Shown here: positions 1 through 56,382 of the stretch, in pieces
How positions within the stretch are numbered: position 1 is the first letter of the stretch
Layout of the letters: the number at the start of each line of letters is the position of its first letter
DNA from: a virus
IMG/VR virus record: IMGVR_UViG_3300043185_000099
Span: 87,956 to 151,955 of that record
Direction: 5' to 3' (one strand)
Length of the DNA stretch: 64,000 bases
Program-made: the position numbers and the translations under genes
The notes under the pieces: generated by a model
Database searches by the model: none
Told to the model about the DNA's origin: nothing
What the model saw: only the letters and a program-made list of their open reading frames with translations

Positions 1-1934
1 ACGCCATTGAGCAGGTCGGCGCTTCGCAGAAGCTCCAAGGTCGTGCCTCCCTCGAGCGTCGTATCGGTGAAGGCTGGATCGACGGTGGAGAAGAACTTGC
101 CGTCATCGAACAGGACCCGGAAGTTGAGGAGATCCTCACCGATCTCCACAGCAAGTTGGCGGGCCGGCAGGGGTGGGAGATTCTGCGTGAGGAACCTGTT
201 CGTCAGGTTGATGCAGTTGATAAAGAGTCGCCGTCTGAACTTGGCCACGGACGCATTGGCATCGCCGAAGAACTTCTTGACGTAACGCCGGCCGACAACC
301 TGAATCATCAGGAACTTGGCCACCTCCTCCAGACCCGTGGTCAAGCGCGCGTGGTCCTCGTACGCCCCCCAGTACGGCTCGAGGAGGCCGTTCGCGAGCA
401 CGTCGACTCCAAAGACAGGCGGGAAATTCACGGGCGCGTCCTTGCCGATCAGGACGGGAAGGTCACTCCTGCTCAAGGCCATGATGGCCAACGCCTCGGC
501 CACGGCGCGCAGATAGAGCTGTGTACTGGCGTCCGGGAAGATAATCTTGGTCACGAAGGAAGGGGGGCCAGCGTCGTTGAGATCGACGTTTGGCGCACGG
601 GTCATCGGAAGCACGGGCCCGTCTCGGTCCCTCAATGATGTCTGGTCCACGAGGAAGGAGTAGTCCGTCGGACTCTTGACCGACCTGTTGACTGCCCTGA
701 CGCGGACAAAGAACTCCTCTGGTTGCCGGTTGTCGTTTTTCCGCTGAAGGCGGTTGCCGAACACCAGGTCCCACTCCGCGGCGAAAGGCATGTCGTCGAA
801 CTGGAACGTCGCGCCGAATCCTCGACCGGGGAAGAAAATATTCTGTGCAAAGGGGACAAAGAACGTGCGCTGAAGATAGAACTTCCCGCCTTCCTGCATG
901 TCCGAGAGCTGGATGGGTGCTCTATCCGAGAGGTTTTTGATCCCGTAGACGCGGACGGCATCGGGCTTGCGGTCCCCGAAAAGCGTGACGGCGTCGTTCC
1001 AGTCGATCGCTCCGCGGAGATCAAGCTGCTGAACGCCTCCATGGAGGAGGATTGGATTGCCGTCGTCATCCTTGCAGTTGACGATCTCCACCTTGGCCGG
1101 CTGGTTCGTCAACTCCAGAGTCTCCAAAACCCCCTCGATTGGGCGTTCACACACAACCTGGATTGGCTGCTCGAGGGTGCTGAACTCGACCAAAAAGCCC
1201 GCGGGAGGGAGAATCGGTCGGTCGGGCCAAGGCGCTCCCGGTATCGGCGCCATCTCCCACGTCAAGTTCACAGCGTTGTACGGGGAGCTGAGATTCTGGT
1301 CGACGGTCCTGTTGAGATCGAACCCCTTGAAGAACCCCTTGTTGAACGAGAAGATCGTCGCTCCATCGTAGCCGTAAGTAGCCTGCACATTACTGACCTG
1401 GTTCATCATCCGGGGCAGCGGGTAGCGCCTGTTGAAGAGACGGAGGATGCTCCTGATCAGCTGGACGATGCGGTTGATTCCGCGGATGTCCGCTTGGACA
1501 AAAAGAAAGACGGCGATACACGACGACAGCTCGCTGATATCGGGCCGGTTAGCATCCCCGGTGTCGGTCAAGCGCGCGACCATTCTGCCCTCGTAGCCGA
1601 GGTAGCCACCGCGGAGTGACTGAAAGTCGGGCCCGACCAGCGAGTAGTAGTCGCCGTGGATGTAGATGCCGAGCTGACGCAGATCGTTAAGGATGGTCTC
1701 GATCAGGTCCCTGAGCGCCTCGATGACCGCTATGATCGGGTCGAGCAGACCCGTGGCGAAGACCTTGAGAACCTCCAGTAATCCGATCAGGATGTTGAGG
1801 ATCTGGATGAGAAACGAGAAGAATGCGTCGACAGCCTGCCGGACCGGCTCAAGGAAATCGGGAATCTCCAGCGAAACCGTCTGCCAGGTGCCGAGTACGC
1901 CCTGTTCCTGAGGGCCCTGTTCAGGATTGGCCAC
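1..1934 (-). CDS. Phage structural/baseplate-region protein, 3'-truncated by the window edge (>644 aa; begins MANPEQGPQEQGVLGTWQTVSLEIPDF)
   Basis: Missing from the ORF track because it runs off the window. A GTG at 1934-1932 directly follows the TAG of the upstream gene. I translated both ends and they are open in the same frame (...TLEGGTTLELLRSADLLNG at position 3). Confidence 0.75.
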   Translation of the reverse strand, partial: MANPEQGPQEQGVLGTWQTVSLEIPDFLEPVRQAVDAFFSFLIQILNILIGLLEVLKVFATGLLDPIIAVIEALRDLIETILNDLRQLGIYIHGDYYSLVGPDFQSLRGGYLGYEGRMVARLTDTGDANRPDISELSSCIAVFLFVQADIRGINRIVQLIRSILRLFNRRYPLPRMMNQVSNVQATYGYDGATIFSFNKGFFKGFDLNRTVDQNLSSPYNAVNLTWEMAPIPGAPWPDRPILPPAGFLVEFSTLEQPIQVVCERPIEGVLETLELTNQPAKVEIVNCKDDDGNPILLHGGVQQLDLRGAIDWNDAVTLFGDRKPDAVRVYGIKNLSDRAPIQLSDMQEGGKFYLQRTFFVPFAQNIFFPGRGFGATFQFDDMPFAAEWDLVFGNRLQRKNDNRQPEEFFVRVRAVNRSVKSPTDYSFLVDQTSLRDRDGPVLPMTRAPNVDLNDAGPPSFVTKIIFPDASTQLYLRAVAEALAIMALSRSDLPVLIGKDAPVNFPPVFGVDVLANGLLEPYWGAYEDHARLTTGLEEVAKFLMIQVVGRRYVKKFFGDANASVAKFRRRLFINCINLTNRFLTQNLPPLPARQLAVEIGEDLLNFRVLFDDGKFFSTVDPAFTDTTLEGGTTLELLRSADLLNG

Positions 1935-42111: not shown

Positions 42112-43674
42112 TCAATCGACGGACCGGGACGGCTCAATCCCCAAGTCCAGAAGACGACGCCGGAGAAGCTCCTCGTCGAACCCCTTCGGATCTGACTGAC
42201 GTACCACGAGTGTGGCGTATCCCTCCTCCCGAGCCCGTCGCAACTTGAGAAGATCGAGCCGAACGCGACGCTCGAAATTCTCCTGCGTCTTGTGCCAGTA
42301 AGGGATGAACGTCTCGTGTTGTCGTCCGTGAGCCTCGACGAGAAGATTCACGAGCGGGAAATACCCGTCGTAGCGCAGCAGGTAGTTGGTCTCAGGGTTC
42401 CTGATCCGCGTGTCCGTGTACTCCCATTCGTACGCCAGACCGCCGAGGACTGCGGCAACCTTATCGAGCACCGACTTCTGAAAGGCGAGCCGGTTTCGGG
42501 TGAAGAGGCCGAGCTGCCGGCAGTAAATCCGCACAGAAAGCTGAGAGCAATCAAGGTGTTCTGCCGCCATAGCCGTAATGACGCGTCCCTGATCGTCCAT
42601 GAACGGGCGAAGTTCTTCTTCGGTGAGGTCCAAGCGTAGCGCAGTTTTGTCCCTGATGATCGAGTCCGTCGCTACAAGAAGCGCGTCAGGAAAAAGGGTC
42701 TTGTAGGACACCTCTGCGTGAGCGTTCTGGATATGACTGCTCAACGCCTCCGCTTTGTGTCCGCACAGACGACACATGACGTAGGCCTCCGGTTCGGTTT
42801 TGCCTGCCCACTGCGCCTCAACCTGCGCAAGATCTTGAGCACACCGACAGTCATCACAGCGCGTCTCGTGCGTGCTGGGGGCAAGAAACGCCGACACCTC
42901 GTGCAGAACACCGCAGTCTGGACACTCGATCTGTTTCGTGGCCCCAGCATGTGACGAGTGCTCCCACGCCTTGGACTGCGCTTGGGACCTTCGCTCGGTC
43001 AACGCCCGCGCCCGAATCAAAGCACCCCTGTGCTTGGCGCGGTACTCGTCTGCTGTCAACCCATGCGTCTTGAGATGTGTCGCGAGGGTCTCCCCACGAA
43101 AATCACATTCTCGGCATCGCACATAGTCTTCATCTTCGATCTTGTCGACCCACCGGAGATTTTCCTGACCATCCCTCCAGACGCGGTGAGCCTCATCTCC
43201 TGCCGCGCAACAATGTTGAATGTGAGAGGCGAGTCCACGTACTCCCTCGCACCGGAAACCGCAAATTGGACACTCTCGGTCAGGATGTCGTTCGCCCCTG
43301 CACTCCGAGCACATGAGCCGGAGAGATCGAGCGATTGAAACTCGATTCGCCCGGTAGACCTCACCACACTCCGAACACAAGACGGCGATCTCCCCCAGCT
43401 CTCGAGGCCCCGAACGCGCCTGATTGTGCGCGAGGGTCTTACGACGTTGAAGGTCCCGCGCACGTCCCTGCATGAGGGCTTCGCCGAACTCCTCCCGCCA
43501 CCACCGCCTGACAACCGTGAAATGGACCCCCACATGCTCAGCCACGTCCTTGAGCGACTGTTCCACGTGAAACATAGCCACGGCGGCGACTCGTGCTCGG
43601 TCAAGTTCGGCCCCCTTGAGGCGACTCCTCTGGCCGCTCTGGGCTGCCTTTTTACGGGCACGTAAGCCTTCCAT
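42112..43674 (-). CDS. Putative free-standing homing endonuclease: HTH, multiple Zn fingers and a C-terminal PD-(D/E)xK/Vsr-like nuclease
   Basis: Many CxxC...H motifs; LRYDGYFPLVNLLVEAHGRQH...DLLKLRRAREEGYATLVVR. Confidence 0.7.
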   Translation of the reverse strand: MEGLRARKKAAQSGQRSRLKGAELDRARVAAVAMFHVEQSLKDVAEHVGVHFTVVRRWWREEFGEALMQGRARDLQRRKTLAHNQARSGPRELGEIAVLCSECGEVYRANRVSIARSLRLMCSECRGERHPDRECPICGFRCEGVRGLASHIQHCCAAGDEAHRVWRDGQENLRWVDKIEDEDYVRCRECDFRGETLATHLKTHGLTADEYRAKHRGALIRARALTERRSQAQSKAWEHSSHAGATKQIECPDCGVLHEVSAFLAPSTHETRCDDCRCAQDLAQVEAQWAGKTEPEAYVMCRLCGHKAEALSSHIQNAHAEVSYKTLFPDALLVATDSIIRDKTALRLDLTEEELRPFMDDQGRVITAMAAEHLDCSQLSVRIYCRQLGLFTRNRLAFQKSVLDKVAAVLGGLAYEWEYTDTRIRNPETNYLLRYDGYFPLVNLLVEAHGRQHETFIPYWHKTQENFERRVRLDLLKLRRAREEGYATLVVRQSDPKGFDEELLRRRLLDLGIEPSRSVD

Positions 43675-43795
43675 GACGAGCCACCTACACGAAGTAGGAT
43701 GGCTCGTCAATAGAACGGAAGGGCGTGCCTCTGGGCCTCCAACAAGGGCCTTCCAACACGACCCTTAGTTGGATCGAAAATCGTGATTGATTACG

Positions 43796-46700
43796 CTAAC
43801 CTCCGAGATTACTCCGAAGGTTAAACGTGATCACAATATACAGCAAAGGGAACACAGGTTGGTAGAACGCCTCCACCTCCACCACGGTCGGATCGTTCGT
43901 GGTGCGCGCCTGCACGCCCGTGTAGGCCGCGATGATCTCGGCGTTCTTGAGAGACTTGAGCGTGGTGCTGAGCTGGCCCTCGATCTCGGACAGGACGCCA
44001 GGCAGGAACTTGATGCCGATGAACCTGTCGAGGTCACGACGCGACGCTCTCTGAACCTCGTCGGCGATCGTGATGACCGTCGGAAGCTTCGTGAGGATGT
44101 TCGACATATCGGTCGTGAGTCCTTGACGGACTCGGATGACCGTGCCGCGCTGCTCCATGACCGTCACGCCCTGCACGGCGACCTGATTCTGCTCCACAGC
44201 GTCCAGCTTGCGTGCCAGCTCATCGAACCCGACGATCCGAGCCCGCGTCCAAGGCGTCGCCACGTCGATGTTCGGTGAAGCCCTGTTGCCCGCCATGGCG
44301 GCCGCGAGGTAGGTGCCGTCCACCAGGAACTGCTTGAAGTTCCCAAGAGCGTCCTGGATCGTAAGCGTCACGATGTCCGGGTAGACCAGGCGGATACGGG
44401 TGTTCTGGATCTGCTGCGCGATCCCCCCGACGTCCGTGGGCTGCGTGCCCGAAGACACGCCAATGATGCCGGTGCGCTCCGCCCTGAACCTGATGCTGGA
44501 CTGGATGTCGCAGTGGTTGCTGAGGGAGAGGAAGAGGTCCACATCGTCGCCCCGCAGGGGAGTGATCGTGTCGAGGACCGCTCCGCCAGGCAGAGCACCG
44601 CGGAGATCGTTGAGCGCGTCGATGTAGCTTTGCGTGCTCGCCTGGTTGCTCCCCGGGATCTTTGGCACCTGCTTGATCCCGAGGACCACAGCCCCGTTGA
44701 GGAACGCGAGGAACCCGGCGAGCGAAACCGGATTGTCAGGCGTCGTGTCGCCGTAGTTCCGCTCCACGGCCCTCTGACTCGTGAACAGCATCGTCTCGAA
44801 GTCGGCGGCCGTCTTCGCGTAGTTGTATGTCACGAAGTAGGAGTCCCCGACGGCGGGCTCCTGGCCACCGCGGTCGAAGGTCTCGACGATAGCCGTGTCG
44901 CCCTGCGGGATCGAGGATCCCTCGGTGTTCGCTACGGTCATCTCGAGCCCGGGGATCGAGTTGACGGGAATGTTCGCGTCCGTTGTGACCAGCTTGCGAA
45001 CCTGGAACGTGAAGGACGCTCCAGCCCCGGTCGGGTAGTCGGCGCCTCCCGTACGTGGCAGGATCGTGAACACGAGTCCGGTGACCGTGTCGCGGTAGCT
45101 CTGGCTGATCATCCCATCCTGGCCCACGCCGTTGTTGAAGCACGACGTGTTGGCCGAGCCCGACCCGTCGACGGGGTCGCTGCTCGTGACGAAGAAGCCC
45201 TGGAACCCGGTCTCGCCCGCGGCTCCCTGACCGCTCGTGACCCCGAGTCCGGTGCCCGTGAGCAGCCAGTCAGCCGTGGTCGCGGTGTCGAACAGGATGT
45301 TCGAGGATGAGCCCAAGCCGACGATGTTGTTGGCCTGACTCTCGATGAACAGGAACTCGCTGGCCGTCAAGTCGCGCTCGACCCCTGCGAGTGCCTGCGC
45401 CGCGAAGAACGTCAGGTCGGGTGCCTGGTAGTCCAGGATCGCCCCGTTAATCGTCGAGCTGTGGTGCATCATCAGGGCCGACGCGACCAGCTCTGGATCG
45501 ACCGTCGAACGCGCTGCTGTGGCCCCCTCGGAGAACCCAAGCACGTTGTTGGCGTTGCCGTTGCCGATCGTGATGGCCGAACTCGGAGTCACCACGGAGC
45601 TGACGAGACGGATGCTCGCCCCCTCCTGCGCGACCACGGAGGCCGGAAGGCCCGCCCCGACCGCGGCATTCTGGATCTGCCGGAGCACGGTGTTGGCGAT
45701 CGAGATCGGACCCAGAGGAACGTCTGCTTGACCCGCCGCCGGGATTGCTGCCCCGGTGGCGTCCCGGAACACGACGGTGAATGCCGTACCGTCGATGTTC
45801 ACCTTCCAGACGTTGTTCTGGGGGTTCACTCCACCGGAAGCGTAGAATCGAACCCTCGGCTGTCCGTCGCGCGCATCCGCGAACGTGCCCGCTGCGACCT
45901 GTCCGTCCTTGAACCCGACTTCGCCGACCAGAGACGCGGGCCGGAGAGTGGCTTCGATGCCAGCGAGACCCACAGCCTTGGCCGCGAGACCCGTCTCCGT
46001 CGTAGCGTTCGTGCCCTGAACGATCAGATTCGTGCGGTCGACCTGACTCTGCGGCTCGAGAGAACCGGAACCCGGCAGGATTCGGTTTCGCATGATGATC
46101 CGGTCGTAGACCAGGCGACCGGAAGCCCCGGAGACCGTGAAGCGACGAGCGATGTCACCGTCCACGACCTTCGTCTGTTCCTGGCCGGGCAACGCGTCGG
46201 TCGAGAGACCACACAGGATCGCGAAGTCCTCAGCGACCGTCGCGGCATCAAGGAACTCCCACACACCGCCGCCGAGGCCAGAACCGCCCGTAAGCGTCGC
46301 ACCGGACACCGGCAGACGGATCGCCGTCGAGCTGGCCAGGGTGATGAAGTTGCCCGAGGGGCCCGGAACGGCAGCCGTGATGTCCACGACAGCCGACGTA
46401 CCACTCGAATTGTCCGCGGTAACGATGCCCACGAGGCCATTGCCAGCATCGGAGATCGCCGCAACGATCGAGGTGGCCACCTGGACGGTGGTCCCCCCTC
46501 CGGCGAAACTCGCGCCGGATACCGGCAGGCGCACGCCCGTCGACGAGGCGATCGTGTAGGTGTTGCCGATCACGCCCGGGGTGTCCGCCCAGACCGTGAC
46601 CGTCGTGACCGTTCCCCCCTCATTGTCGGCCGTCACCGCGGCTGCGAGGCCGTTGCCGGCATCGTTGATGGCAGCAACGATGCTGCTGGCCACTGTGAGG

Positions 46701-49700
46701 TTGGTGCCAATACCACCCGCCAGCGTGGGGCCGCTGGTGATGAGTCGTGTCGCGCTACTCGACAGGAGGACGATCGTGTTCCCCGCGTTCCCCGGTGTCA
46801 CCGCCGTGACAGTCACGACATCGAGGACGACGCCGGTGAGGACGAGTGCCGGGAGAGAAGCGACGATGGACGCTCCGAGGGACGTCGCCACGGTGGTGTC
46901 GTCACCGATGCCACCGAGCAGGGTGCCGGCGGAGAGGGTGATCCTCGTGGCGCCGGTAGACTCCATCAGTGTGATGCCGTTGCCGACGAGGCCGGGAGTG
47001 AATGAGTCAATGTCGACGACGTTCGACGCGCCGCCAGAGTTGTCGGCAATGACCCCTCCGACAAGACCGTTGCCAGCGTCAGCGATCGCCGCCACGAGGC
47101 TCGTTGCCGCTGAGATGTCGTCACCCACACCACCCGTGAGTGTTGCGCCGCTAAGAGTGAAGCGACCGGGAGCGGTTGTGCTGAGGGTGAGCAGGTTGCC
47201 GACCGCGCCGGGCGTGACAGCCGTGAGCACGAGCGTGGTCGCGCCCGAGGACGTGGCCGTAACGTCCACCGCGAACGAGTTGGCCACGTCGTTGACGGCC
47301 GCGAGTGCGTCGTCACGCGCCGACGTATTCGTGCCCAGGCCGCCCGCCAGCGTCGCGCCGGTGAATGTGAGGCGCGCCGGTGCGGTCGAGACGGTCGAGA
47401 TCGAGTTACCGCCGGTGCCGGGAGTAATCGCCCGGATGTTCACGATAGCCGACGTGCCGCCCGTGTTGTGTGCCTGCACGGTGCCGGTCATGCCGTTGAG
47501 CGGATCGAGGATCGCCGCGACGATCGCCGTCGCGGTCGTGATCTCGGTTCCGACACCGCCGCCGAACGTCGCCGGGATCGTCACGGTGCCGTCGGAGGAC
47601 AGGTTGGCGACGGCGTTGGCCGCCATGCCCGGAACCGTCCAGGTGGCGGTGACGTCAGCAGGACCGGGACCAACCGCGGCGCTCGAGAAGGCTGCGAACG
47701 AGTTGAGCGGGTCGTTGAGTGCCGCGGCGATGTCCGCGGCGATGGCTGCCGTCGTGCCGAGTGTGTTGTCGTAGTCGTCTGCGCCCGGCGTGCGAGGTCC
47801 GCCTGCCGGGGTCAAGACGTACGGACCGCCCGCGATGGCGCCCGTATCGATCGTGATCGTCGCCGACGACGGAGATGCCGTCACGGTGATGAGAGCCGTC
47901 GCTTGTGTGCCAGCATCGAAATTCAGACCGCCGGGCGTGGTGACATCGTCGGCCGTGAGCGGGATGCCGGCGATGGTGATCGTGTCGCCGTAGAGCACAC
48001 CTGTGCTCGGGAGCGCCGTCACGACCACGGTCAGCATCGTGGTGGCGCGAACGCCGGCGTTGAAGTCGTCGGCACCGGAGGTACGAGCGACATCGACGGG
48101 CGTGAGCACGTTGCCGTTGATCGTGACCGTGTCCGCCGCCACGACGGGATACGGAGCGGCCGAGGCCACGCGGACGCCGCTGAAGCCGATCGTGCCCGTA
48201 GCCGCGGTCCCGACGTTAAAGTCGAGGCCACCCGGCGTCTGCGTGTTGCTGGCCGTCAGCGTGACAGGACCACCACCCACGACCGACGTGTCGATCGTGA
48301 TTGTGTCGCCGTACTGGACCCCCGTCAGGGTCGCCGTTCCATCGGCTCGCGTCCCGACATCAAACTGATTCGCGGCCGGGACTCCTTCGACGCCTGTGAA
48401 GACCTGACCGTCAACGGTAACCGTGTCACCGGGGATGGGCCCCGAAACCGTGATCGTTCCCGTGGCGCGTGTGCCCTCATTGAAGTCGAGGCCACCAGGC
48501 GTCTGTGATCCAAGCGCGGTGATGACGATCGGGCCGCCGCCGGCATCAATCGTGAACGTGTCACCTGGCTGGACACCCATCGGAATGAGGGTCGCCCTCG
48601 CCTGTCCCGTGTCGAAGTTCTGGTCGCCCGTCGTTTGGGCGAGATCACCCGTGAGGGTCACGCCGTCGATCGTGATCGTGTCCCCGATGACCGCGAGCGC
48701 CGACGTCACCGTGCCGGTGGCGAACGTACCGAGGTCGGTCGGAGTACCCGAGAACGTGAACCGAAGCTGTCCGTCGGAGTTCGCCGTGGTGGTGATGTCC
48801 ATCCCGGAGAAGACGGCGGGGAGAGCCCCAATGGCTGTCTGCAACGCTGAGTCGACTGCGGCCGCCAGGGTCGTCGGCGACGTGTACGTTCCGGGAGCGA
48901 TCGTGGCCGTGACAGGCCCCGTGGTCCCGCTGGTCACGCCCGCATAGTTGAAGACGAGCTTGTCGTAGCGTCCCGCGGTGATCGTGAGCGATCCGAGGAA
49001 CCGTGTCGTCCCATCGAGGAATGGGTTGTTGGCCACGAGCTTCGCCTCGGCGTTGATCGCCTCGACGTAGGCATCGGCGTCCACGGCCGTCTGGGACGGG
49101 ACGATGGTCGTGATGACGACCCCGTCCACTGTGAACGACACGTTGTCGTTGATGCCGCTCAGGATGTCGTAGGTCGTCTTGCCGGAGTCGTCGGTGTACT
49201 GAATCTCCTCACCGAGCAAGCTCGCGTAGAACCCGAGTCCCGCGATCCCATGCGGTGCGGAGAGATCGATGCCCGCAGCGCCGCCCGCCAGAGCGGAACT
49301 GTCGATGGTGAAGCGGGCGCGATCCGAGGCCCCAGAGACGAAGAAGTACGGACCCGCACCGGGCACCGTGAACTTCGCGATGGTGGCGTCCTTTTCCGCG
49401 AACTGCACGGTGACCGTCTCTTCGACGGGGCCGGATGTGCCTCCTTCGAAGTGCACGTCGGGGGTGAGTTCACTGCCCGACGGGAACTCGATCGTGACGC
49501 CCGTGAGCGCGGGACCCTTGCTCCCGAACTTCGGCGTGTAGATCGGGTTGCCGTTCTTGTCGAACAGGAAGTACGTGCCGATCCCAGACGGTCCGCTGGT
49601 CTCGACTTGGACCGTGTACTCCTCGTCGACCATGATGTTGTACCAGAAGGTAGCGAACACGGTCGCGCCGACGGGCACGGGATCCTTGAGCGTGATGACG

Positions 49701-51238
49701 GTTCCCTCGACCTTCGTCACCGCCACCGGGCCACGGTTGAGTGCGTCCTCGGATCCGAATCCCCAGTATGCCTTGACGAGATTCGGGTTGTTCGTCGGGA
49801 GGTCGATGCGGTTGTTCGAGACTGACAGGAACACATCCTGCCCCAGCGGCGTGTCGCGGCCGTTGCCGGTCGTCGGCTGCACCGGCAGCTTGAACTGGAG
49901 GCGGTTCTCGACGGCTGGAATCACCGTGTCGTCCACCACCGGCTCGGCCTCGGCCAGGAACCAACGATTGTCGATCAGGAGACCCGAGATCTGCGTCGGT
50001 CCGAACGGAGGGGCTCCCGGCGTGGTGATTCCTGGGGAGACCAGGAAGGCCGCTCCCCAGACAATCAGGTCGTCCTTGAGAACGAAATCGGCTCCCTCAA
50101 TGAAGTCGCTGTTGCCCGGCACGATGCCGCAACGGATGACCTCAGTGACATTGATGTTCGCGAGGTAATCGAACGTGTCCTGCCACGTGTTGAAGAAGTA
50201 CTGGATCGTGACGGTGTCGCCGACCGCCGGGGCGAAGGGCAGCGTCACGGCTCTGTTCTGGCCATCGACCTCCGTCGGAATGACCTGGACCGAGTTGACA
50301 CGCACAGTCACCTTCGACGTGTCAGTCGTGGTGATGCCGCCGTTTGAACCGTCGACGATAGGCCCGTTGAAGGTGAAGAACGTGCGGTTCCGACGCGTGT
50401 TCTGGTTCTGCGTGAAGCCGAGGACCGAGTTGGCCGTGCCGTTCCCGATCAGGAGATCGTTGTCGGCAACAAGGCGCACCGCCGTGAGACCGAAGTTATT
50501 GGTGTAGGTCGACGCCACCAGCGACGTGCCAGCCGCAGCCCCGTTGATCAGGGAGACCACCGTAGCGGCCGTGACGCTGCCGGTGGGGAACGTGGCGGTC
50601 ACAACCTGCTGCGTGGTTGCCGACTGATCGAAGTCCACCGTCACGATGAACTGGTTGTTGGAGGAGGTGAACTCGTAGGCGTTGCCGAGGGCCCCCTCGA
50701 GAATCGCTCCCTGCGTGGACACCTGGTTGGACAGGTTGTCTGTGGTCTGTGTGTCAGTGCGCTTGAAGAAGTAGGTGACCCGCACGTCATCGCCGAAAAC
50801 CGGCGCCGTGCTGATCTCGATCACGCCGATGTCGGCGCGAGCCACGCTCAGCACCACGTCGGGGCGGCCATTGATGGTGACCAGGATCGAGCTGGGATCG
50901 GTCGCCGTCCGACCCGCCCCCGACCCGTCCGTGATCGGGTAGTTACGGACCTGGATGCGGCGGCGCTCTCCGTTGAAGTCTCCGAGGATGACCTCGCCGG
51001 TCATCGTGATCTCCACGACGGCTCGACCGGTCTCGTCCTCCTGGGGGACCTGCTGGTCGACCGAGCTGCTTGAGCCACGGATGACCTCCAGGTCCTGTTG
51101 CTGGAGCAGCTCGTTGCCCGTCCCGATCAGCACTGGGATGCGGACGCCCGCGAGCACGCCCGAGACCGGGCTGTCGAAAAGCGTGCGGGTGTACACGCCC
51201 GGCGGGCTGTAAATGGTACCTGGAAAATCAGCGGGCAT
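43796..51238 (-). CDS. Contractile tail sheath protein, giant (2480 aa), with large domain insertions
   Basis: N-terminal YSPPGVYTRT; C-terminal sheath motifs (VRQGLTTD...TIADEV...DPTVVEVEAFYQPVFPLLYIVITFNL). Confidence 0.9.
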   Translation of the reverse strand: MPADFPGTIYSPPGVYTRTLFDSPVSGVLAGVRIPVLIGTGNELLQQQDLEVIRGSSSSVDQQVPQEDETGRAVVEITMTGEVILGDFNGERRRIQVRNYPITDGSGAGRTATDPSSILVTINGRPDVVLSVARADIGVIEISTAPVFGDDVRVTYFFKRTDTQTTDNLSNQVSTQGAILEGALGNAYEFTSSNNQFIVTVDFDQSATTQQVVTATFPTGSVTAATVVSLINGAAAGTSLVASTYTNNFGLTAVRLVADNDLLIGNGTANSVLGFTQNQNTRRNRTFFTFNGPIVDGSNGGITTTDTSKVTVRVNSVQVIPTEVDGQNRAVTLPFAPAVGDTVTIQYFFNTWQDTFDYLANINVTEVIRCGIVPGNSDFIEGADFVLKDDLIVWGAAFLVSPGITTPGAPPFGPTQISGLLIDNRWFLAEAEPVVDDTVIPAVENRLQFKLPVQPTTGNGRDTPLGQDVFLSVSNNRIDLPTNNPNLVKAYWGFGSEDALNRGPVAVTKVEGTVITLKDPVPVGATVFATFWYNIMVDEEYTVQVETSGPSGIGTYFLFDKNGNPIYTPKFGSKGPALTGVTIEFPSGSELTPDVHFEGGTSGPVEETVTVQFAEKDATIAKFTVPGAGPYFFVSGASDRARFTIDSSALAGGAAGIDLSAPHGIAGLGFYASLLGEEIQYTDDSGKTTYDILSGINDNVSFTVDGVVITTIVPSQTAVDADAYVEAINAEAKLVANNPFLDGTTRFLGSLTITAGRYDKLVFNYAGVTSGTTGPVTATIAPGTYTSPTTLAAAVDSALQTAIGALPAVFSGMDITTTANSDGQLRFTFSGTPTDLGTFATGTVTSALAVIGDTITIDGVTLTGDLAQTTGDQNFDTGQARATLIPMGVQPGDTFTIDAGGGPIVITALGSQTPGGLDFNEGTRATGTITVSGPIPGDTVTVDGQVFTGVEGVPAANQFDVGTRADGTATLTGVQYGDTITIDTSVVGGGPVTLTASNTQTPGGLDFNVGTAATGTIGFSGVRVASAAPYPVVAADTVTINGNVLTPVDVARTSGADDFNAGVRATTMLTVVVTALPSTGVLYGDTITIAGIPLTADDVTTPGGLNFDAGTQATALITVTASPSSATITIDTGAIAGGPYVLTPAGGPRTPGADDYDNTLGTTAAIAADIAAALNDPLNSFAAFSSAAVGPGPADVTATWTVPGMAANAVANLSSDGTVTIPATFGGGVGTEITTATAIVAAILDPLNGMTGTVQAHNTGGTSAIVNIRAITPGTGGNSISTVSTAPARLTFTGATLAGGLGTNTSARDDALAAVNDVANSFAVDVTATSSGATTLVLTAVTPGAVGNLLTLSTTAPGRFTLSGATLTGGVGDDISAATSLVAAIADAGNGLVGGVIADNSGGASNVVDIDSFTPGLVGNGITLMESTGATRITLSAGTLLGGIGDDTTVATSLGASIVASLPALVLTGVVLDVVTVTAVTPGNAGNTIVLLSSSATRLITSGPTLAGGIGTNLTVASSIVAAINDAGNGLAAAVTADNEGGTVTTVTVWADTPGVIGNTYTIASSTGVRLPVSGASFAGGGTTVQVATSIVAAISDAGNGLVGIVTADNSSGTSAVVDITAAVPGPSGNFITLASSTAIRLPVSGATLTGGSGLGGGVWEFLDAATVAEDFAILCGLSTDALPGQEQTKVVDGDIARRFTVSGASGRLVYDRIIMRNRILPGSGSLEPQSQVDRTNLIVQGTNATTETGLAAKAVGLAGIEATLRPASLVGEVGFKDGQVAAGTFADARDGQPRVRFYASGGVNPQNNVWKVNIDGTAFTVVFRDATGAAIPAAGQADVPLGPISIANTVLRQIQNAAVGAGLPASVVAQEGASIRLVSSVVTPSSAITIGNGNANNVLGFSEGATAARSTVDPELVASALMMHHSSTINGAILDYQAPDLTFFAAQALAGVERDLTASEFLFIESQANNIVGLGSSSNILFDTATTADWLLTGTGLGVTSGQGAAGETGFQGFFVTSSDPVDGSGSANTSCFNNGVGQDGMISQSYRDTVTGLVFTILPRTGGADYPTGAGASFTFQVRKLVTTDANIPVNSIPGLEMTVANTEGSSIPQGDTAIVETFDRGGQEPAVGDSYFVTYNYAKTAADFETMLFTSQRAVERNYGDTTPDNPVSLAGFLAFLNGAVVLGIKQVPKIPGSNQASTQSYIDALNDLRGALPGGAVLDTITPLRGDDVDLFLSLSNHCDIQSSIRFRAERTGIIGVSSGTQPTDVGGIAQQIQNTRIRLVYPDIVTLTIQDALGNFKQFLVDGTYLAAAMAGNRASPNIDVATPWTRARIVGFDELARKLDAVEQNQVAVQGVTVMEQRGTVIRVRQGLTTDMSNILTKLPTVITIADEVQRASRRDLDRFIGIKFLPGVLSEIEGQLSTTLKSLKNAEIIAAYTGVQARTTNDPTVVEVEAFYQPVFPLLYIVITFNLRSNLGG
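46280..48725 (-). repeat. Nested repeat array in the sheath: 7 domain N-halves followed by 7 domain C-halves
   Basis: Seven ATGT..GDTITI..F(D/N)xG units, then seven A.S.VAAI.D..N...TPG..GN...GATL.GG units. Confidence 0.85.
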
Positions 51239-51239
51239 G

Positions 51240-52070
51240 TCAGCGTCCTTTCAGTACGACGTAGTCGTCGACAGAAATCCTTGTGAAGTGGAATCCTTGA
51301 CACGGAGTTCCACGGCGAATCGACTTCGCTACGGCATCAGAAGACAACCCAAGAATTTTGGCTGCTTCGGAGGCCGATGAGAACACGCAACCATCGGATC
51401 GGCGAACGGGGTTTGCGTTGCTTTCTCGGATGCGGGTCTTGTGCTCTTCGGAGAAAAGCCGTCCCTTGTGGGCGGCACTCATCTTGGCGCGCGTATCTTC
51501 CGAAACGGTGCGGCCAGTGTGAGCCGCCACCATCCGTTCCTTGCTCTCTACGGAATGACGCCGATCCTTCCAGAATTCGCCCCGACCGCGCTCCAAATTC
51601 AAGAGCTGTTGCGGCAACATTCCACGTTTCTTCGCTGACGCCGACATCTTCGCGCGAGTGTCAGCATTTGCGACAACCCCGGCACCACCCTCCGTCAAAT
51701 TGTAGCCGTGGGCCCGATCCGAGGACCGGTAGAGGGCAATGTAGGACTGCTCACGCTCATTGGCTTTCTCCAAGGTTGGGATGCCCTCCTCAAGCGTCTC
51801 CCAGACCATGGCGCACCTGTACTTGCGCAGCGCAGCGGCAAAGTGACGATTCTTCCCAACCCGTGCAAGATAGTGATGTTCCACTTTGCGAGCTTTGAGT
51901 GTGCGCCCAGTGATCCCGACGTAAACCTTCCCGCTCGGCGACGTGGCCTTGTACACCACGTACGTCGCGTCATCCGCGGGACGCGCCCCCCCGCTCGCGC
52001 TCGACTCGGACGAGGAGTGCGTCGCATCTGGCCACGGGGTCACCGTGACGAGTTCGTTGGTCTGGAGCAT
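51240..52070 (-). CDS. GIY-YIG homing endonuclease with NUMOD3-like repeats
   Basis: VVYKATSPSGKVYVGIT...R...GYNLTEGG; repeats HSVESKERM, SEDTRAKMSAAHKG, SEEHKTRI; C-terminal FSSASEAAKILG. Confidence 0.9.
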   Translation of the reverse strand: MLQTNELVTVTPWPDATHSSSESSASGGARPADDATYVVYKATSPSGKVYVGITGRTLKARKVEHHYLARVGKNRHFAAALRKYRCAMVWETLEEGIPTLEKANEREQSYIALYRSSDRAHGYNLTEGGAGVVANADTRAKMSASAKKRGMLPQQLLNLERGRGEFWKDRRHSVESKERMVAAHTGRTVSEDTRAKMSAAHKGRLFSEEHKTRIRESNANPVRRSDGCVFSSASEAAKILGLSSDAVAKSIRRGTPCQGFHFTRISVDDYVVLKGR

Positions 52071-52907: not shown

Positions 52908-54167
52908 TTACCGTAGCATCTCGCCTGTTCCGTAGACCCCTAAGCGCCCGCGCTTGCCGACGAAGAATGGGTCCCACGGTGCTCGGAGCCCAAGGGATGC
53001 CAGTACGCGGAAGTTCGTCTGAATCTTCGCGATTTCCTCGTCTGAGAGCCCCGCGATCTGCTCGATGAACGGAGAGATGAGAGGAGCCTGCCCTTGTGGG
53101 ATGGGCTCGCCACCACCCGGCTCGACGCCTCGAATCGTGATGCCGAGTGGGACGTGGATGCTCCAGTCTGTCTGGAGCTGCAGACTGAAGCTCGCGTTGT
53201 AGAACCAGTCGTCGGCGACCTCGTCGTACTGTTCTTCCGTCTCGCCTCCCATGTTGACGGATGCGATCTCGATTCCCTGGCTGGAAAGGCGCGGTCGAGC
53301 AGTCGTCCACAGGTAGAGCGCGGTCTGGTCGAGGATTTCGCGCTGCGATAGGGGATCCCTGGCGATCACGTCGACGTCAAGCGTGAGATCCCATCGACCT
53401 CCGAACTCGAGTGCTGATACGGTGCGCTTCTCCTGGACCACGACAGCTAGACGGTCCCCCGCGGTGACCCGTCTTCCGAATGCGAGGACGGTTCCAGGAA
53501 TCGGGTCCCGGAGCGCACGATCCTCGACGACCTTCCAGGGACCCGTCGTCTCGCCTGGACAACGGTAGTCGGCCGACAAGAACTCGTCAGCTTCTAGGTC
53601 GTCGACGAGATCGATCTCGCCCGTATTCGGAACCGCCGTGTAATTCGTGCCCTCATAGAGCAGGAGATTCCCCGGCATCCGATAGAGACGGAGCGTGCCA
53701 GCCAGGAACTTCCCTTGCTGGAGCTGGTACTGCGTGGCGTTGATCTTGAGAACCGTCTCATCGATCACGTCGAGCAGCGGGTCGACATAAAACGCTTGGT
53801 CGGTTGGCTCACCGTTCGCATCGCAGAAGTCCAAGTAGTAGATGCCGGGAGGCGAAGGGAACTCGCCGCCGTTGTTCTGGATGGCGATGAAGTCCTCGCG
53901 CACCCACTCTACTGACAAATTCGGCTTACCCTCCACATGGGCGAGGTAGACGTAGCTCTGCACCGTCCCTTGGAAGTTATCCGCGGCAAGCTGGACCTGG
54001 TTGCCGGCACTGTTCTTGAGCACGATGCCGAACTGCGGGCGCTCGCGAAAGCTGTACTTGCCCTGGATGTGATGGACAATGTCCTTGTACTTCGGGTGAT
54101 ACGACCAATACTTGCGGATTTCCTCGATGAATTTCCGGTTGATTTGTTCCGTGAGGAAGTAGTACAT
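52908..54167 (-). CDS. Putative tail-completion/neck protein (419 aa)
   Basis: Position upstream of the sheath; GAGGAG RBS; terminator-like motifs (DLTLDVDVIARD...FYNASFSLQLQTDW). Confidence 0.5.
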   Translation of the reverse strand: MYYFLTEQINRKFIEEIRKYWSYHPKYKDIVHHIQGKYSFRERPQFGIVLKNSAGNQVQLAADNFQGTVQSYVYLAHVEGKPNLSVEWVREDFIAIQNNGGEFPSPPGIYYLDFCDANGEPTDQAFYVDPLLDVIDETVLKINATQYQLQQGKFLAGTLRLYRMPGNLLLYEGTNYTAVPNTGEIDLVDDLEADEFLSADYRCPGETTGPWKVVEDRALRDPIPGTVLAFGRRVTAGDRLAVVVQEKRTVSALEFGGRWDLTLDVDVIARDPLSQREILDQTALYLWTTARPRLSSQGIEIASVNMGGETEEQYDEVADDWFYNASFSLQLQTDWSIHVPLGITIRGVEPGGGEPIPQGQAPLISPFIEQIAGLSDEEIAKIQTNFRVLASLGLRAPWDPFFVGKRGRLGVYGTGEMLR

Positions 54168-54243: not shown

Positions 54244-56328
54244 CTATTCCTCGTCGTACTCTTGGAGCGCCTGGACGAGAAGTCCTCGTGCCACGGCCTC
54301 CAGCGGGTCGCGGGCCGCACGGATTTCGCTGACCTCGATCGGGTAGCGCTTCCGCTTCTCCTCGAACACCTTCTTGAAGAACTCCAGGAAGCCCGCGGCC
54401 TTGCTTGTCCCGCCCGAGACGACGATTGGGATGGCCTGCGGGAGCGCGAACCTGCTGCGGATCTTCTCAAACTCGATCGCGATCGTGTCGAGCGTGTACT
54501 CGATGAGGTTCTTGTAGTAGACGACAAGCGCCTCCTGTTCGCGGTCCGACGGACGCAGGAGGTCGAGTCCCTTCTCCTTGATTGCGCACATGCGGGCCTG
54601 CGTAGAGCCGACGCTCCTCGCGGCCCCGGCATCGATCCAATCTCCGCAGTTGTGAACGATCATCCCGGGCGACGAGAACGAGTGGTGCGACGATGCCACG
54701 CGGATGTCGTAGACTTTGCTCCCGTACTCGACGACGTTGACCGAGCGAACGCGGTACGTGACAAAGTCGGGAAAGTCGTCGAACACCTGAGTCCCCTCGC
54801 ACGCGATCATCGTGTCGAGGAGGTTTTTCGCCACATGGCCGCAGATCTTGATCTCATAGCACGGTTTTCTGCCCTCGATCCTGACACCGCGCGAGTTGAG
54901 TCCTCCAACGCGTGGCTCCCTCTTGACGATAGAGTGTCCGACTCCAAAACGGTTCAAAAGATGATGCGCCAGCATCACAACGGGGAGCGACGTGTTCGTG
55001 ATCGTGTGGCGCTTGGCCTCCTCGTGAGAGTCGCTGTCGAGGAGACCCTGAACGATCCCGAGGGCCATCTGATTGCCGATTTTGGATGGGTCGAGGGGGC
55101 ACGTCTTCACGCCGTGCTCGTCGTAGAACCGCTCCTTGAAGTGCCGTGCCACCGGGGTGATGTGGAGCTTGATGCGAGTGAGATTCTCGGCCGGATCATC
55201 GACGATCTCCACTTCGCGATGGAACAGGCGAAAGCAGATGTCCGCATACGCCTCGACCAGATGTTGGTCTCTGCAATTAACTGCGATCTGGACATGTGAA
55301 GGGTCCTCTGCGTGAGGACCGCACGATCCGTCCCCGAGGAACATGCCGAACAAACGTCCGAGGGACCTGGCTCCCGCCACGCAGATCTGGTTCCCGAATG
55401 AGTAGCCGCTGCCGCTGTCCCGGGCCGACAAGATTGTGGGAACCCCCACGTCGTCGCCCTCGCGGAGGGAACCGGCCTCGACCCACTCCCAGCCGAACCT
55501 GCGACGCACGAAGACGCGGTGATCGTGGGTCAGCCGATGTGGAAACCCGGGCAAATTCTCCAGGACAACCTCAACGAGAGAGTCCCTGTGGCCATTCTCC
55601 AGTTTCTCGGTGACGGCCACGAAGTTTCCGTGCGCATCGAGTACCTCATCCCCTTCGCGGAGATTCTCCATGGTAGCGAGACCATGTTTCGTCACGACGG
55701 GGAAGTCTCCGGCGAGGCAGCGACCGACGCTCGCGGTAAACCCCTCGACCGTGTTGATCGCCAGCGCGATGTTCGTCATCCCAGCGCCGTAGCTCAACGC
55801 CAGCCCGCTGAACCCTTCTTTGGCGCACTCGGAGTAGACGATGGCCATGGCCTCATTGCCGGGGACTGCACGGTAGCCGCACTCCTCGATGATCCTCTGG
55901 AGAACTCCTCTGTGGTAGACGACGTCGCGCGAGGGATCGTCCACCGGCGCAGCAGGCACGCTGAAGCAGCAGACCTCGCGCTCCTCGACAGGATCACCCA
56001 GGACGTGGCGAATGATGACGCCGAGGATCTCGAGAGCATCGATCTCTCCCGCCGACACGAGGCCCGACTGGAGCGGACGCCGGACCTCCGTCCCGAACAT
56101 GTTGGCCATGTTGTAGGCCGCGTCCCCCACAATTACAAGCCGGTCCCCCCTCTCCACGTAGTTGACGTTGGAGAGGCGGAGCATCTTCCGGTGCTCGCGA
56201 GGGAAGTCAATGAAGGCGTCGCGCATCCTGGTGGTGACGACACCCTCGCTAGTGCGACGTGCCGACACGACATTCATGGTGCCCAGGTCGAGGCCGACGC
56301 CGGGAATCAATCCTTCATATTCTGCCAT
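54244..56328 (-). CDS. Actin/MreB-like ATPase precursor containing an intein (694 aa; about 337 aa spliced)
   Basis: GLDLGTMN (phosphate 1), FSVPA, NEAMA, SYGAGMTN (phosphate 2), VVSGGTS (adenosine), AVARG. Confidence 0.85.
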   Translation of the reverse strand: MAEYEGLIPGVGLDLGTMNVVSARRTSEGVVTTRMRDAFIDFPREHRKMLRLSNVNYVERGDRLVIVGDAAYNMANMFGTEVRRPLQSGLVSAGEIDALEILGVIIRHVLGDPVEEREVCCFSVPAAPVDDPSRDVVYHRGVLQRIIEECGYRAVPGNEAMAIVYSECAKEGFSGLALSYGAGMTNIALAINTVEGFTASVGRCLAGDFPVVTKHGLATMENLREGDEVLDAHGNFVAVTEKLENGHRDSLVEVVLENLPGFPHRLTHDHRVFVRRRFGWEWVEAGSLREGDDVGVPTILSARDSGSGYSFGNQICVAGARSLGRLFGMFLGDGSCGPHAEDPSHVQIAVNCRDQHLVEAYADICFRLFHREVEIVDDPAENLTRIKLHITPVARHFKERFYDEHGVKTCPLDPSKIGNQMALGIVQGLLDSDSHEEAKRHTITNTSLPVVMLAHHLLNRFGVGHSIVKREPRVGGLNSRGVRIEGRKPCYEIKICGHVAKNLLDTMIACEGTQVFDDFPDFVTYRVRSVNVVEYGSKVYDIRVASSHHSFSSPGMIVHNCGDWIDAGAARSVGSTQARMCAIKEKGLDLLRPSDREQEALVVYYKNLIEYTLDTIAIEFEKIRSRFALPQAIPIVVSGGTSKAAGFLEFFKKVFEEKRKRYPIEVSEIRAARDPLEAVARGLLVQALQEYDEE
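54649..55719 (-). mobile_element. Intein (357 aa) with LAGLIDADG homing endonuclease
   Basis: Begins CLAGDFPV; block B LTHDHRVF; LFGMFLGDG and VQGLLDSDS; ends VYDIRV...IVHN followed by Cys+1. Confidence 0.92.
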
Positions 56329-56382
56329 GTCGATTCCTTGTGCATGTTCGACCGCCGCGACGAGCACGGGGACACCCCCATC

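What the first reader, a model, noticed from the sequence alone, without database searches (positions are those of the whole stretch)
46280..48725. Seven-level Russian-doll domain nesting in a 2480-aa tail sheath
Seen: seven tandem N-halves (A1-A7, ATGT..GDTITI..FxxG; about 48725-47755) are followed by seven tandem C-halves (helix A.S.VAAI.D, then TPG..GN..GATL.GG; about 47755-46280). The halves co-vary in mirror order. A7 and A5 (GADD type) match the 1st and 3rd C-halves (both NSFA). A6, A4 and A2 (TPGGL type) match the 2nd, 4th and 6th (NG(L/M)...N.GG). The short A3 matches the shortest, 5th, C-half. The order is therefore A1..A7-B7..B1, each domain inserted into the same loop of the previous one. 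Established: sheath proteins grow by nested outward insertions, but usually of a few different domains. Inference: a two-stranded stalk of about 810 aa projects from every sheath subunit, giving a bristled tail built by recursive self-insertion.
Basis: partly seen in the sequence, partly recalled or inferred. Interest (0 to 1): 0.85.

Follow-up and report, generated by a model that had tools for sequence, protein, structure and literature searches.

The report
Seven-deep self-nested domain in phage sheath
The giant (2480-aa) tail-sheath protein of a huge uncultured phage carries seven copies of one small surface domain, each very probably inserted inside the previous one like Russian dolls; I found no published case of such deep self-nesting, and what the module does is unknown.

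Summary
The gene at window 43796-51238 (-) encodes a 2480-aa tail sheath. Residues 840-1161 are seven "A" half-units and residues 1162-1654 are seven "B" half-units.

The block aa 831-1647 is a clean insertion. The closest relative in the phage collection (1665 aa) aligns on both sides of it and lacks it entirely.

A followed directly by B is the usual form of this ~115-aa domain, seen in 82 of 134 representative relatives. Its fold matches the outward-pointing domain III of Mu, A-1(L), PhiTE and Milano sheaths.

Five lines of evidence support the nested pairing Ai with B(8-i):
- The AlphaFold2 model is confident (pLDDT 91.7), and solved single domains superpose on it over ranges that end at the mirror-pair boundaries.
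- A truncated construct loses confidence exactly in the A units whose predicted partners are missing.
- Across 45 orthologues, lineage-specific rates pair the units in mirror order (rank 1 of 5040 assignments).
- The A and B paralogue trees agree under the mirror mapping.
- Relatives show balanced architectures: AABB, AAABBB, AAAABBBB.

Related sheaths carry 0, 1 or 7 levels at the same site. The shape of the stalk ("bristles"), its function and the DNA events that built it remain inferred. I class it as a new variant of a known kind, since nested sheath domains are already described.

The parts
43796..51238 (-). Tail sheath gene, 2480 aa (P0001)
   Evidence: ORF. The C-terminus is homologous to annotated sheaths. 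44 full-length homologues of 2420-2489 aa exist.
43799..44956 (-). Conserved sheath C-terminal core (aa ~2095-2480)
   Evidence: tblastn hits to phage G gp178 and to mycobacteriophage and Gordonia phage sheaths, E down to 2e-27.
46298..48748 (-). Inserted module, aa 831-1647, absent from the nearest sheath in the phage collection
   Evidence: The LR745208.1 homologue (1665 aa) aligns to query 10-830 and 1648-2476 with nothing in between. 38 related sheaths also lack it.
47756..48721 (-). Array of seven A half-domains (A1-A7, aa 840-1161; beta strands)
   Evidence: Alignment, unit coordinates, secondary structure of the model.
46277..47755 (-). Array of seven B half-domains (B1-B7 in sequence order, aa 1162-1654; helix plus strands)
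47552..47905 (-). Level 7 (innermost) domain, A7+B1, contiguous (aa 1112-1229)
   Evidence: 8kee_C: Z 10.6, rmsd 2.2 A, 94 aligned, model range 280..398. Many database relatives match across this junction.
47906..48049 (-). A6 (aa 1064-1111), N-half of level 6; partner is B2 at 47336-47551
   Evidence: 9ndy_H: Z 7.1, 81 aligned, model range 235..471. Rate correlation 0.36, the row maximum.
47336..47551 (-). B2 (aa 1230-1301), C-half of level 6
   Evidence: As for A6.
48050..48205 (-). A5 (aa 1012-1063), N-half of level 5; partner is B3 at 47126-47335
   Evidence: 6iwy, 9yh1 and 9u4r align over model ranges 180/181..541-543. Rate correlation 0.30.
47126..47335 (-). B3 (aa 1302-1371), C-half of level 5
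   Evidence: As for A5.
48206..48349 (-). A4 (aa 964-1011), N-half of level 4; partner is B4 at 46907-47125
   Evidence: 9m68_A: Z 6.8, 100 aligned, model range 132..617. Rate correlation 0.11, the row maximum.
46907..47125 (-). B4 (aa 1372-1444), C-half of level 4
   Evidence: As for A4.
48350..48469 (-). A3 (aa 924-963), N-half of level 3; partner is B5 at 46709-46906
   Evidence: 7y1c_Y Z 9.4, 9cba Z 9.1 and 8fop_T Z 7.1 align over model ranges 91-96..672-683. Rate correlation 0.64.
46709..46906 (-). B5 (aa 1445-1510), C-half of level 3
   Evidence: As for A3.
48470..48601 (-). A2 (aa 880-923), N-half of level 2; partner is B6 at 46496-46708
   Evidence: 8erm_B: Z 4.5, 87 aligned, model range 49..750. 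Rate correlation 0.38.
46496..46708 (-). B6 (aa 1511-1581), C-half of level 2
   Evidence: As for A2.
48602..48721 (-). A1 (aa 840-879), N-half of level 1 (outermost shell, nearest the sheath body); partner is B7 at 46277-46495
   Evidence: The only structural row is weak (9r62_I: Z 4.8, model range 3..828). Rate correlation 0.24, the row maximum, and 98% of bootstraps.
46277..46495 (-). B7 (aa 1582-1654), C-half of level 1
   Evidence: As for A1.
48749..49240 (-). N-side of the sheath region that hosts the module (aa 667-830); itself absent from the Tunturi_5 sheath
   Evidence: BLASTP against Tunturi_5 gp326 aligns only query 10-666 and 2038-2475.
45128..46297 (-). C-side of the hosting region (aa 1648-2037)

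Best explanation
This is the contractile-tail sheath protein of a huge uncultured phage. A surface loop of one of its outer domains carries an 817-aa module (aa 831-1647). The module consists of seven homologous ~115-aa domains of the type that forms the outward-pointing domain III of Mu/A-1(L)/PhiTE/Milano-type sheaths. Each domain has an N-terminal beta half (A) and a C-terminal helix-plus-strand half (B). In six of the seven, the A|B junction is opened by the next domain. The chain therefore runs out through A1..A7, turns at the contiguous A7-B1 domain, and returns through B1..B7, closing the domains in reverse order.

Shown here: the insertion itself, the homology of the units, the mirror pairing, conservation of 7+7 across 45 orthologues, and the fact that nest depth changes by mirror pairs in relatives.

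Inferred: consecutive domains are joined by two short chain segments, so the module is probably a semi-rigid beaded rod on every sheath subunit, away from the tube-contacting core. It probably acts as an accessory surface structure, either adhering weakly to host envelope or matrix polymers or bracing the tail. It probably grew by duplication of whole domains, in part as two-level blocks.
For: Sheath identity. The upstream gene is a homologue of the Tunturi_5 'tail terminator'.

Clean insertion. Related sheaths carry 0 (38), 1 (~38) or 7 (45) AB levels at the same site.

Contiguous AB is the usual form: architectures among 134 representatives are AB 82, AABB 14, ABAB 12, AAABBB 2, AAAABBBB 1, AABABB 1. 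Small AB proteins hit phrog_165 'tail sheath' at profile positions 84-213 of 493.

Structure: the AF2 model has pLDDT 91.7. Foldseek's top hits are sheaths (8kee, E 1.5e-4). VIA ranges end at mirror-pair boundaries for all seven levels: 280..398, 235..471, 180..542, 132..617, 94..677, 49..750, 3..828.

Control construct A1-A7+B1-B3: the orphan units A1-A4 drop to pLDDT 60-88 and lose their first strand, with the step exactly at the A4|A5 boundary. A5-A7 and B1-B3 stay mostly at 90-97, with one block at 87 (compared).

Evolution: residual-distance correlation across 45 orthologues puts the mirror assignment at rank 1 of 5040, and every A row has its maximum at the mirror partner. The full mirror assignment is recovered in 245 of 300 bootstraps. 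The paralogue-similarity Mantel test gives r=0.80 for mirror order (rank 123 of 5040) and r=-0.09 for parallel order. The unit trees group {A7|B1}, {A3,A5|B5,B3}, {A4,A6|B4,B2} and {A1,A2|B7,B6}. In the small-protein family P0049/P0048/P0046 (298, 406 and 521 aa), the extra units are mirror pairs: A2+B2 in the three-level protein, A3+B2 in the four-level one.
Against: No experimental structure exists, and I could not obtain model coordinates or PAE. The pairings are therefore read from the first and last aligned residues of structural alignments, not from a contact map. The A1+B7 level has only a weak structural row (Z 4.8), and A2+B6 only Z 4.5. pTM is 0.53, so the relative orientation of the domains, and hence the rod shape, is not defined. 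The orphan A units in the control still score ~79 pLDDT, so the contrast is a step rather than a collapse. The MSA has only 45 related sequences. Some relatives show B-only or B-rich arrays (P0134, P0136, P0061, P0122). From their spacing these probably hide divergent A halves, but I did not show that. Single-sequence co-variation is not significant. No function was tested.
Confidence: 0.85

Rival explanations
1. The pairing is mirror-ordered but occurs in trans. The A array of one sheath subunit zips with the B array of a neighbouring subunit (3D domain swapping), cross-linking the outside of the sheath into a mesh instead of forming a hairpin stalk on each subunit.
For: Sheath subunits are known to exchange N- and C-terminal strands with neighbours (the 'handshake' described for Mu gp39 in PMC11915804). 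Rate co-variation cannot tell cis from trans pairing. Only a monomer was modelled.
Against: A7 and B1 are contiguous with a short linker, and together they match ordinary contiguous AB domains in many proteins. The monomer model closes all seven domains in cis at pLDDT ~92. Small soluble-looking proteins with AABB to AAAABBBB architectures exist outside sheaths.
Confidence: 0.06
2. The A and B arrays are two independent tandem-repeat regions that fold separately, a beta-rich rod followed by a string of alpha/beta beads. The nested picture is then an AlphaFold artefact.
For: Arrays that score only as B exist in some relatives (P0134, P0136). The orphan A units still reach pLDDT ~79 in the truncated construct.
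Against: Contiguous AB is by far the commonest architecture, and balanced AnBn forms dominate over unbalanced ones. Single solved domains superpose on Ai+B(8-i). The mirror assignment ranks first of 5040 in a sequence-only test that does not use AlphaFold. Indels in relatives remove mirror pairs. The first strand of each orphan A unit is lost in the control.
Confidence: 0.04
3. The nesting is real, but the module does not project as bristles. It folds back and lies along the sheath surface, where the modules of neighbouring subunits interlock into an extra outer coat that stabilises a very long tail.
For: pTM is only 0.53, so the domain-to-domain geometry is undefined. Stabilisation by additional sheath domains has been proposed in the literature (PMC9230969). 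The depth of seven is strictly conserved across 45 orthologues down to 47% identity, which fits a fixed lattice contact better than a loose adhesin would.
Against: No direct evidence either way. Related sheaths with 0 or 1 level are evidently viable, so the module is not needed for assembly.
Confidence: 0.3

Closest known systems
Multi-domain ('type 3') phage tail sheaths, e.g. T4 gp18 and jumbo-phage sheaths (Evseev et al. 2022, PMC9230969)
   Same: They have a conserved core built from the N- and C-termini. Additional domains lie away from the tube, and some are formed from an outgoing and a returning chain segment. Domain number rises with genome size.
   Different: That survey reports 'five and more' domains at most, of differing kinds, and its largest two-domain sheaths are 713 aa. 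Here seven homologous copies of one domain are nested in each other, on top of at least two further insertion layers, giving 2480 aa.
Domain III of Mu gp39, cyanophage A-1(L), PhiTE, Milano and 7-7-1 sheaths
   Same: The fold is the same as each AB domain: 8kee_C Z 10.6, rmsd 2.2 A, 94 aligned, 23% identity; 9cba Z 9.1; 8foy Z 8.2; 9khy Z 7.0. It has the same outward position in a sheath (PMC11915804).
   Different: Those sheaths carry one contiguous copy. In this protein six of the seven copies are split by another copy.
Flagellin and FliD hairpin architecture (D0-D1-D2-D3)
   Same: The polypeptide runs outward and returns, so inner domains are made of N- and C-side segments (established knowledge). 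The outer domains of FliC and FliD superpose on AB domains at Z 6-7 (4nx9, 5fhy, 5h5t).
   Different: Flagellin nests a few domains rather than seven homologous copies of one domain as here. I found no sequence similarity. The Z values are in the range that can reflect only a common arrangement.
Sheath of uncultured phage LR745208.1 (485 kb) and Tunturiibacter phage Tunturi_5 gp326
   Same: Both are orthologous sheaths. LR745208.1 is 47% identical on both sides of the insert. Tunturi_5 is 31% identical and is an isolated contractile-tailed jumbo phage.
   Different: LR745208.1 lacks the whole AB module. Tunturi_5 (1204 aa) also lacks the region that hosts it.

Membership tests
Phage contractile tail sheath protein | C-terminal core homologous to known sheath proteins | tested here: met
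   tblastn of aa ~2092-2479 hits annotated sheaths in 221 phage records, including phage G gp178 at E 2e-27.
Phage contractile tail sheath protein | The N-terminal part also belongs to the sheath (core built from both termini) | tested here: met
   Query 10-666 aligns with residues 8-635 of the annotated Tunturi_5 sheath (E 1e-55), and query 2038-2475 aligns with its C-terminus.
Phage contractile tail sheath protein | Match to curated sheath profiles (Pfam or PHROGs) | tested here: inconclusive
   The full protein has no Pfam or PHROG hit except a sub-threshold DUF4815 match. The sequence is too divergent for these profiles, and the BLAST evidence above stands.
Phage contractile tail sheath protein | Tail-module gene context (terminator, tube) | tested here: inconclusive
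   The upstream ORF 52908-54167 matches the Tunturi_5 'tail terminator' gene (E 8e-6). No tube gene was recognised downstream.
Phage contractile tail sheath protein | Assembles into a contractile sheath in the virion | not testable with these tools
   Needs virions, EM and mass spectrometry.
Mu/A-1(L)-type sheath domain III fold (the AB domain) | Structural superposition covering most of the domain | tested here: met
   8kee_C: Z 10.6, rmsd 2.2 A, 94 aligned over chain residues 91-186. PhiTE, Milano, Mu, Sf14 and 7-7-1 sheaths give Z 7-9. All of this rests on a predicted model.
Mu/A-1(L)-type sheath domain III fold (the AB domain) | Sequence-profile link to sheath domain III | tested here: inconclusive
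   Small AB relatives P0083 and P0111 hit phrog_165 'tail sheath' at positions 84-213 of 493 (E 8e-8 and 1e-6). The window protein itself does not.
Nested (discontinuous) domain architecture | A compact domain built from two chain segments that flank another complete domain | tested here: met
   In the model, contiguous solved domains align over ranges 235..471, 180..542, 132..617, 94..677 and 49..750 with only 81-100 residues aligned. The sequence-only tests agree.
Nested (discontinuous) domain architecture | Direct residue contacts between Ai and B(8-i) | not testable with these tools
   Model coordinates and PAE were not available in the script box.

The most novel reading that the evidence does not exclude
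This domain family builds proteins by a balanced-bracket rule. A opens a domain and B closes it, and depths of 1, 2, 3, 4 and 7 occur in nature. As far as my literature searches reached, the sheath's seven-deep homologous nest has no described counterpart. If so, it would form a double-stranded, semi-rigid beaded rod, perhaps ~20 nm long (my estimate, not computed), on every subunit of the tail of a clade of huge phages.
Probability: 0.55. Interest if true: 0.8.

Novelty: new variant of a known kind. Interest (0 to 1): 0.72.

Why it matters
Tail sheaths are known to gain outer domains by insertion, but only a handful, and of different kinds. Here one small domain has been nested in itself seven times and then kept unchanged in number across a clade whose module has diverged to 47% identity.

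This gives a natural, testable case of how far discontinuous-domain nesting can go while a protein still folds. It also gives a family (AB, AABB, AAABBB, AAAABBBB, A7B7, AABABB) in which the evolutionary steps can be traced. For phage biology, it predicts an unusual tail surface on abundant, uncultured huge phages whose nearest isolated relative infects soil Acidobacteriota. For protein engineering, it points to a domain and a loop that tolerate recursive insertion.

Tried and rejected
- Pfam and PHROGs on the whole protein and on the insert gave nothing usable. The AB domain is not in Pfam.
- A sequence search of the PDB with the whole protein and with the insert gave nothing.
- Co-variation of unit lengths across orthologues is dominated by clade structure and told me nothing.
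- Scoring the single AB domain of one-level sheaths against the 14 unit profiles gave no clean orthology to any one level. The best matches are A5/A3 with B3/B5 in one group, B7/B4 in another, and A7 with B1 in P0255. I therefore could not say which level is ancestral.
- Parallel pairing (Ai with Bi) is rejected: rank 4322 of 5040 and r=-0.09.
- Literature searches for nested, Russian-doll or matryoshka domain insertion, and for sheath nesting, found no report of this architecture. That library is not exhaustive.
- PHROGs and Pfam gave nothing for the neighbouring giant ORFs or for a tube candidate.


Full report
**What is there.** The window holds a 7443-nt ORF on the minus strand (43796-51238) encoding 2480 aa.
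- Its last ~385 residues hit annotated tail sheaths in 221 phage records, including Bacillus phage G gp178 (E 2e-27) and many mycobacteriophage and Gordonia phage sheaths.
- Its first ~660 residues and its C-terminus align with the annotated 1204-aa sheath of the isolated jumbo myovirus Tunturiibacter phage Tunturi_5.
- The ORF upstream (52908-54167) matches that phage's 'tail terminator' gene.
- Curated profiles do not recognise the protein.
- The assembly is a single 152-kb contig. Homologues sit on contigs of up to 618-648 kb. This fits the earlier notes of this scan, which call it a huge uncultured phage.

**The repeats.** Residues 840-1161 are seven ~40-52-aa units (A1-A7). Residues 1162-1654 are seven ~66-73-aa units (B1-B7 in sequence order). 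The similarity is far beyond chance: B7 against the other B units gives E from 8e-25 to 8e-11, and A4 against A2, A6 and A7 gives 1e-14 to 5e-8.

**It is an insertion.** The closest sheath in the phage collection comes from the 485-kb uncultured phage LR745208.1 and is 1665 aa long. It aligns at 47-48% identity to residues 10-830 and 1648-2476, with its own residues 848 and 846 abutting. So aa 831-1647 is one clean insertion into a surface loop. Tunturi_5 additionally lacks aa 667-2037. The module therefore sits on top of at least one more insertion layer.

**What the unit is.** A search of 1.8 billion representatives with the insert found 134 other proteins. I scanned them with HMMs built for A and for B:

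| Architecture | Count |
|---|---|
| AB | 82 |
| AABB | 14 |
| ABAB | 12 |
| AAABBB | 2 |
| AAAABBBB | 1 |
| AABABB | 1 |
| B-rich or B-only arrays | a few |

- In the B-rich arrays the spacing of B units suggests divergent, undetected A halves.
- A followed directly by B is thus one ordinary ~115-aa domain, and many hits match straight across the A7-B1 junction.
- The domain has no Pfam family. Small AB proteins hit phrog_28344 and phrog_165 'tail sheath' at profile positions 84-213 of 493.

**Structure prediction.** AlphaFold2 on aa 831-1660, with an alignment of 44 orthologues, gave mean pLDDT 91.7 and pTM 0.53. Foldseek's only significant PDB hits are the cyanophage A-1(L) sheath chains (8kee, E 1.5e-4), followed by the PhiTE and Milano sheaths. 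I could not obtain coordinates. VIA-align, however, reports the first and last aligned model residue for each match. In model numbering (aa minus 830) the units are:

| Unit | Model residues | Unit | Model residues |
|---|---|---|---|
| A1 | 10-49 | B1 | 332-399 |
| A2 | 50-93 | B2 | 400-471 |
| A3 | 94-133 | B3 | 472-541 |
| A4 | 134-181 | B4 | 542-614 |
| A5 | 182-233 | B5 | 615-680 |
| A6 | 234-281 | B6 | 681-751 |
| A7 | 282-331 | B7 | 752-824 |

Contiguous ~100-residue solved domains superpose as follows:

| Level | PDB chain | Z | Details | Model range |
|---|---|---|---|---|
| A7+B1 | 8kee_C | 10.6 | rmsd 2.2 A, 94 aligned | 280..398 |
| A6+B2 | 9ndy_H | 7.1 | 81 aligned | 235..471 |
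| A5+B3 | 6iwy, 9yh1, 9u4r | 5.2-6.3 | 89-90 aligned | 180-181..541-543 |
| A4+B4 | 9m68_A | 6.8 | 100 aligned | 132..617 |
| A3+B5 | 7y1c_Y, 9cba, 8fop_T | 9.4, 9.1, 7.1 | 71-85 aligned | 91-95..677-683 |
| A2+B6 | 8erm_B | 4.5 | 87 aligned | 49..750 |
| A1+B7 | 9r62_I | 4.8 (weak) | 90 aligned | 3..828 |

Only 71-100 residues are aligned over spans of up to 700, and the end points fall within a few residues of the mirror-pair boundaries. In the model, then, each compact domain is Ai plus B(8-i).

**A control inside one prediction.** I folded A1-A7 plus only B1-B3 (aa 840-1371) with the same orthologues.
- The nested model predicts that A5-A7 keep their partners and A1-A4 lose theirs.
- The ten-residue pLDDT blocks for A1-A4 read 60-88. 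The same residues scored 90-95 in the full model.
- From residue 171 on, the blocks are mostly 90-97, with one at 87. A5 starts at residue 173, so the step is exactly at the A4|A5 boundary.
- The first strand of each of A1-A4 disappears from the secondary-structure string, while that of A5 (175-180) is kept.
- The drop is a step, not a collapse.

**Sequence-only tests.** In the single sequence, A-to-A and B-to-B similarity matrices correlate only weakly under mirror order (rank 513 of 5040). With orthologues the signal is clear.
- All 45 sheaths of this type (47-91% identical in the module) have 7+7 units with orthologous positions.
- For each unit I computed pairwise distances among the 45 orthologues, removed the shared trend, and correlated the residuals. 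Every A row has its maximum at the mirror partner (0.24, 0.38, 0.64, 0.11, 0.30, 0.36, 0.19). The mirror assignment ranks first of 5040 and the parallel one 4322nd.
- Resampling orthologues recovers the full mirror assignment in 245 of 300 replicates, and each pair in 84-100%.
- A units do not correlate with their sequence neighbours, so recombination blocks do not explain this.
- Mean paralogue similarity gives Mantel r=0.80 for mirror order (rank 123 of 5040) and r=-0.09 for parallel order.
- Unit trees group {A7}, {A3,A5}, {A4,A6}, {A1,A2} and {B1}, {B3,B5}, {B2,B4}, {B6,B7}, which are the same sets under the mirror mapping.
- Both halves of each domain therefore share a duplication history. 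The (3,5)/(4,6) pattern suggests that a two-level block was copied.

**Depth varies by mirror pairs elsewhere.** Four small proteins share N- and C-termini and have 2, 2, 3 and 4 levels (P0049 and P0050 at 298 aa, P0048 at 406 aa, P0046 at 521 aa). Unit-by-unit comparison shows that the extra units are A2 and B2 in the three-level protein and A3 and B2 in the four-level one. Those are exactly the mirror partners.

Among the 120 best relatives of the sheath's N-terminal part, 45 have seven levels, about 38 have one AB at the same site (1731-1867 aa), and 38 have none (1624-1745 aa). Depths of 2-6 were not seen. On a core tree, one-level tips (P0180, P0186) sit inside or next to seven-level groups. 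This could reflect deletion of the contiguous inner block or cassette exchange by recombination. I did not resolve which.

**How it probably works.**
- Shown: an accessory module on the outside of a sheath, built from seven nested copies of the sheath's own outward-pointing domain type (Mu gp39 domain III 'extends outward', PMC11915804).
- Inferred: because neighbouring levels are joined by two short connections, the module should be a fairly stiff beaded rod on every subunit.
- Undecided: whether it sticks out as a bristle or lies down as an outer coat (pTM 0.53).
- The literature proposes adhesion or stabilisation for additional sheath domains and finds them dispensable for contraction (PMC9230969). 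Relatives with 0 or 1 level support dispensability here.
- The strict conservation of seven levels suggests that length matters.

**Comparison with what is known.** Nested sheath domains are established: T4 gp18 (from my own knowledge) and the 'type 3' sheaths with 'five and more' domains, some made of an outgoing and a returning segment (PMC9230969). Flagellin and FliD share the hairpin logic and, loosely, the fold (Z 6-7).

What is new is that the nested domains are seven copies of the same domain, together with the size of the protein and a family-wide balanced-bracket pattern. My literature searches found no description of this. I class it as a new variant of a known kind.

**Limits.**
- All structural statements rest on predicted models and on the end points of alignments.
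- No contact map, geometry or function was tested.

Noticed in passing
window 51240-52070 (-): A GIY-YIG/NUMOD3 homing-endonuclease gene lies directly upstream of the sheath gene. Its stop codon ends one base before the sheath start codon.
   Followed up: no
window 42112-43710 (-): The 532-aa ORF just downstream of the sheath has ROS/MucR and HTH matches and an HNH-endonuclease PHROG hit. The sheath gene is therefore flanked on both sides by endonuclease-like genes.
   Followed up: no
window 54244-56367 (-): An actin-fold protein (Pfam Volactin, E 6e-64) is interrupted by an intein with a LAGLIDADG domain, two genes upstream of the sheath. This scan had already noted it.
   Followed up: no
window 2210-13132 (-) and 16158-21518 (-): ORFs of 3640 aa and 1786 aa in the same strand block have no Pfam or PHROG match. 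The 809-aa ORF between them has a weak baseplate-spike OB-domain hit.
   Followed up: partly
proteins P0049, P0050, P0048, P0046 (database relatives, not in the window): A small-protein family with shared termini has 2, 2, 3 and 4 nested AB levels (298, 298, 406 and 521 aa), and its units are ~50% identical to the sheath's. Their genomic context could not be fetched.
   Followed up: partly
protein P0112 (408 aa, database relative): Its architecture reads AABABB, that is, two AB domains side by side inside one outer AB domain, a branched nest. This rests on HMM hits only and was not modelled.
   Followed up: no
core tree of 121 related sheaths: One-level sheaths P0180 and P0186 sit inside or beside seven-level clades, and no sheath with 2-6 levels was found. 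This suggests whole-block loss or cassette exchange rather than stepwise change.
   Followed up: partly
own genome contig, 67383-70883 (-), outside the window: A second ORF of this phage (about 1166 aa) carries a single AB domain.
   Followed up: no
window ~44800-44870 (aa 2124-2145 of the sheath): There is a sub-threshold Pfam DUF4815 match (21.6 bits against a cut-off of 30). The same family is precomputed on several orthologues.
   Followed up: no
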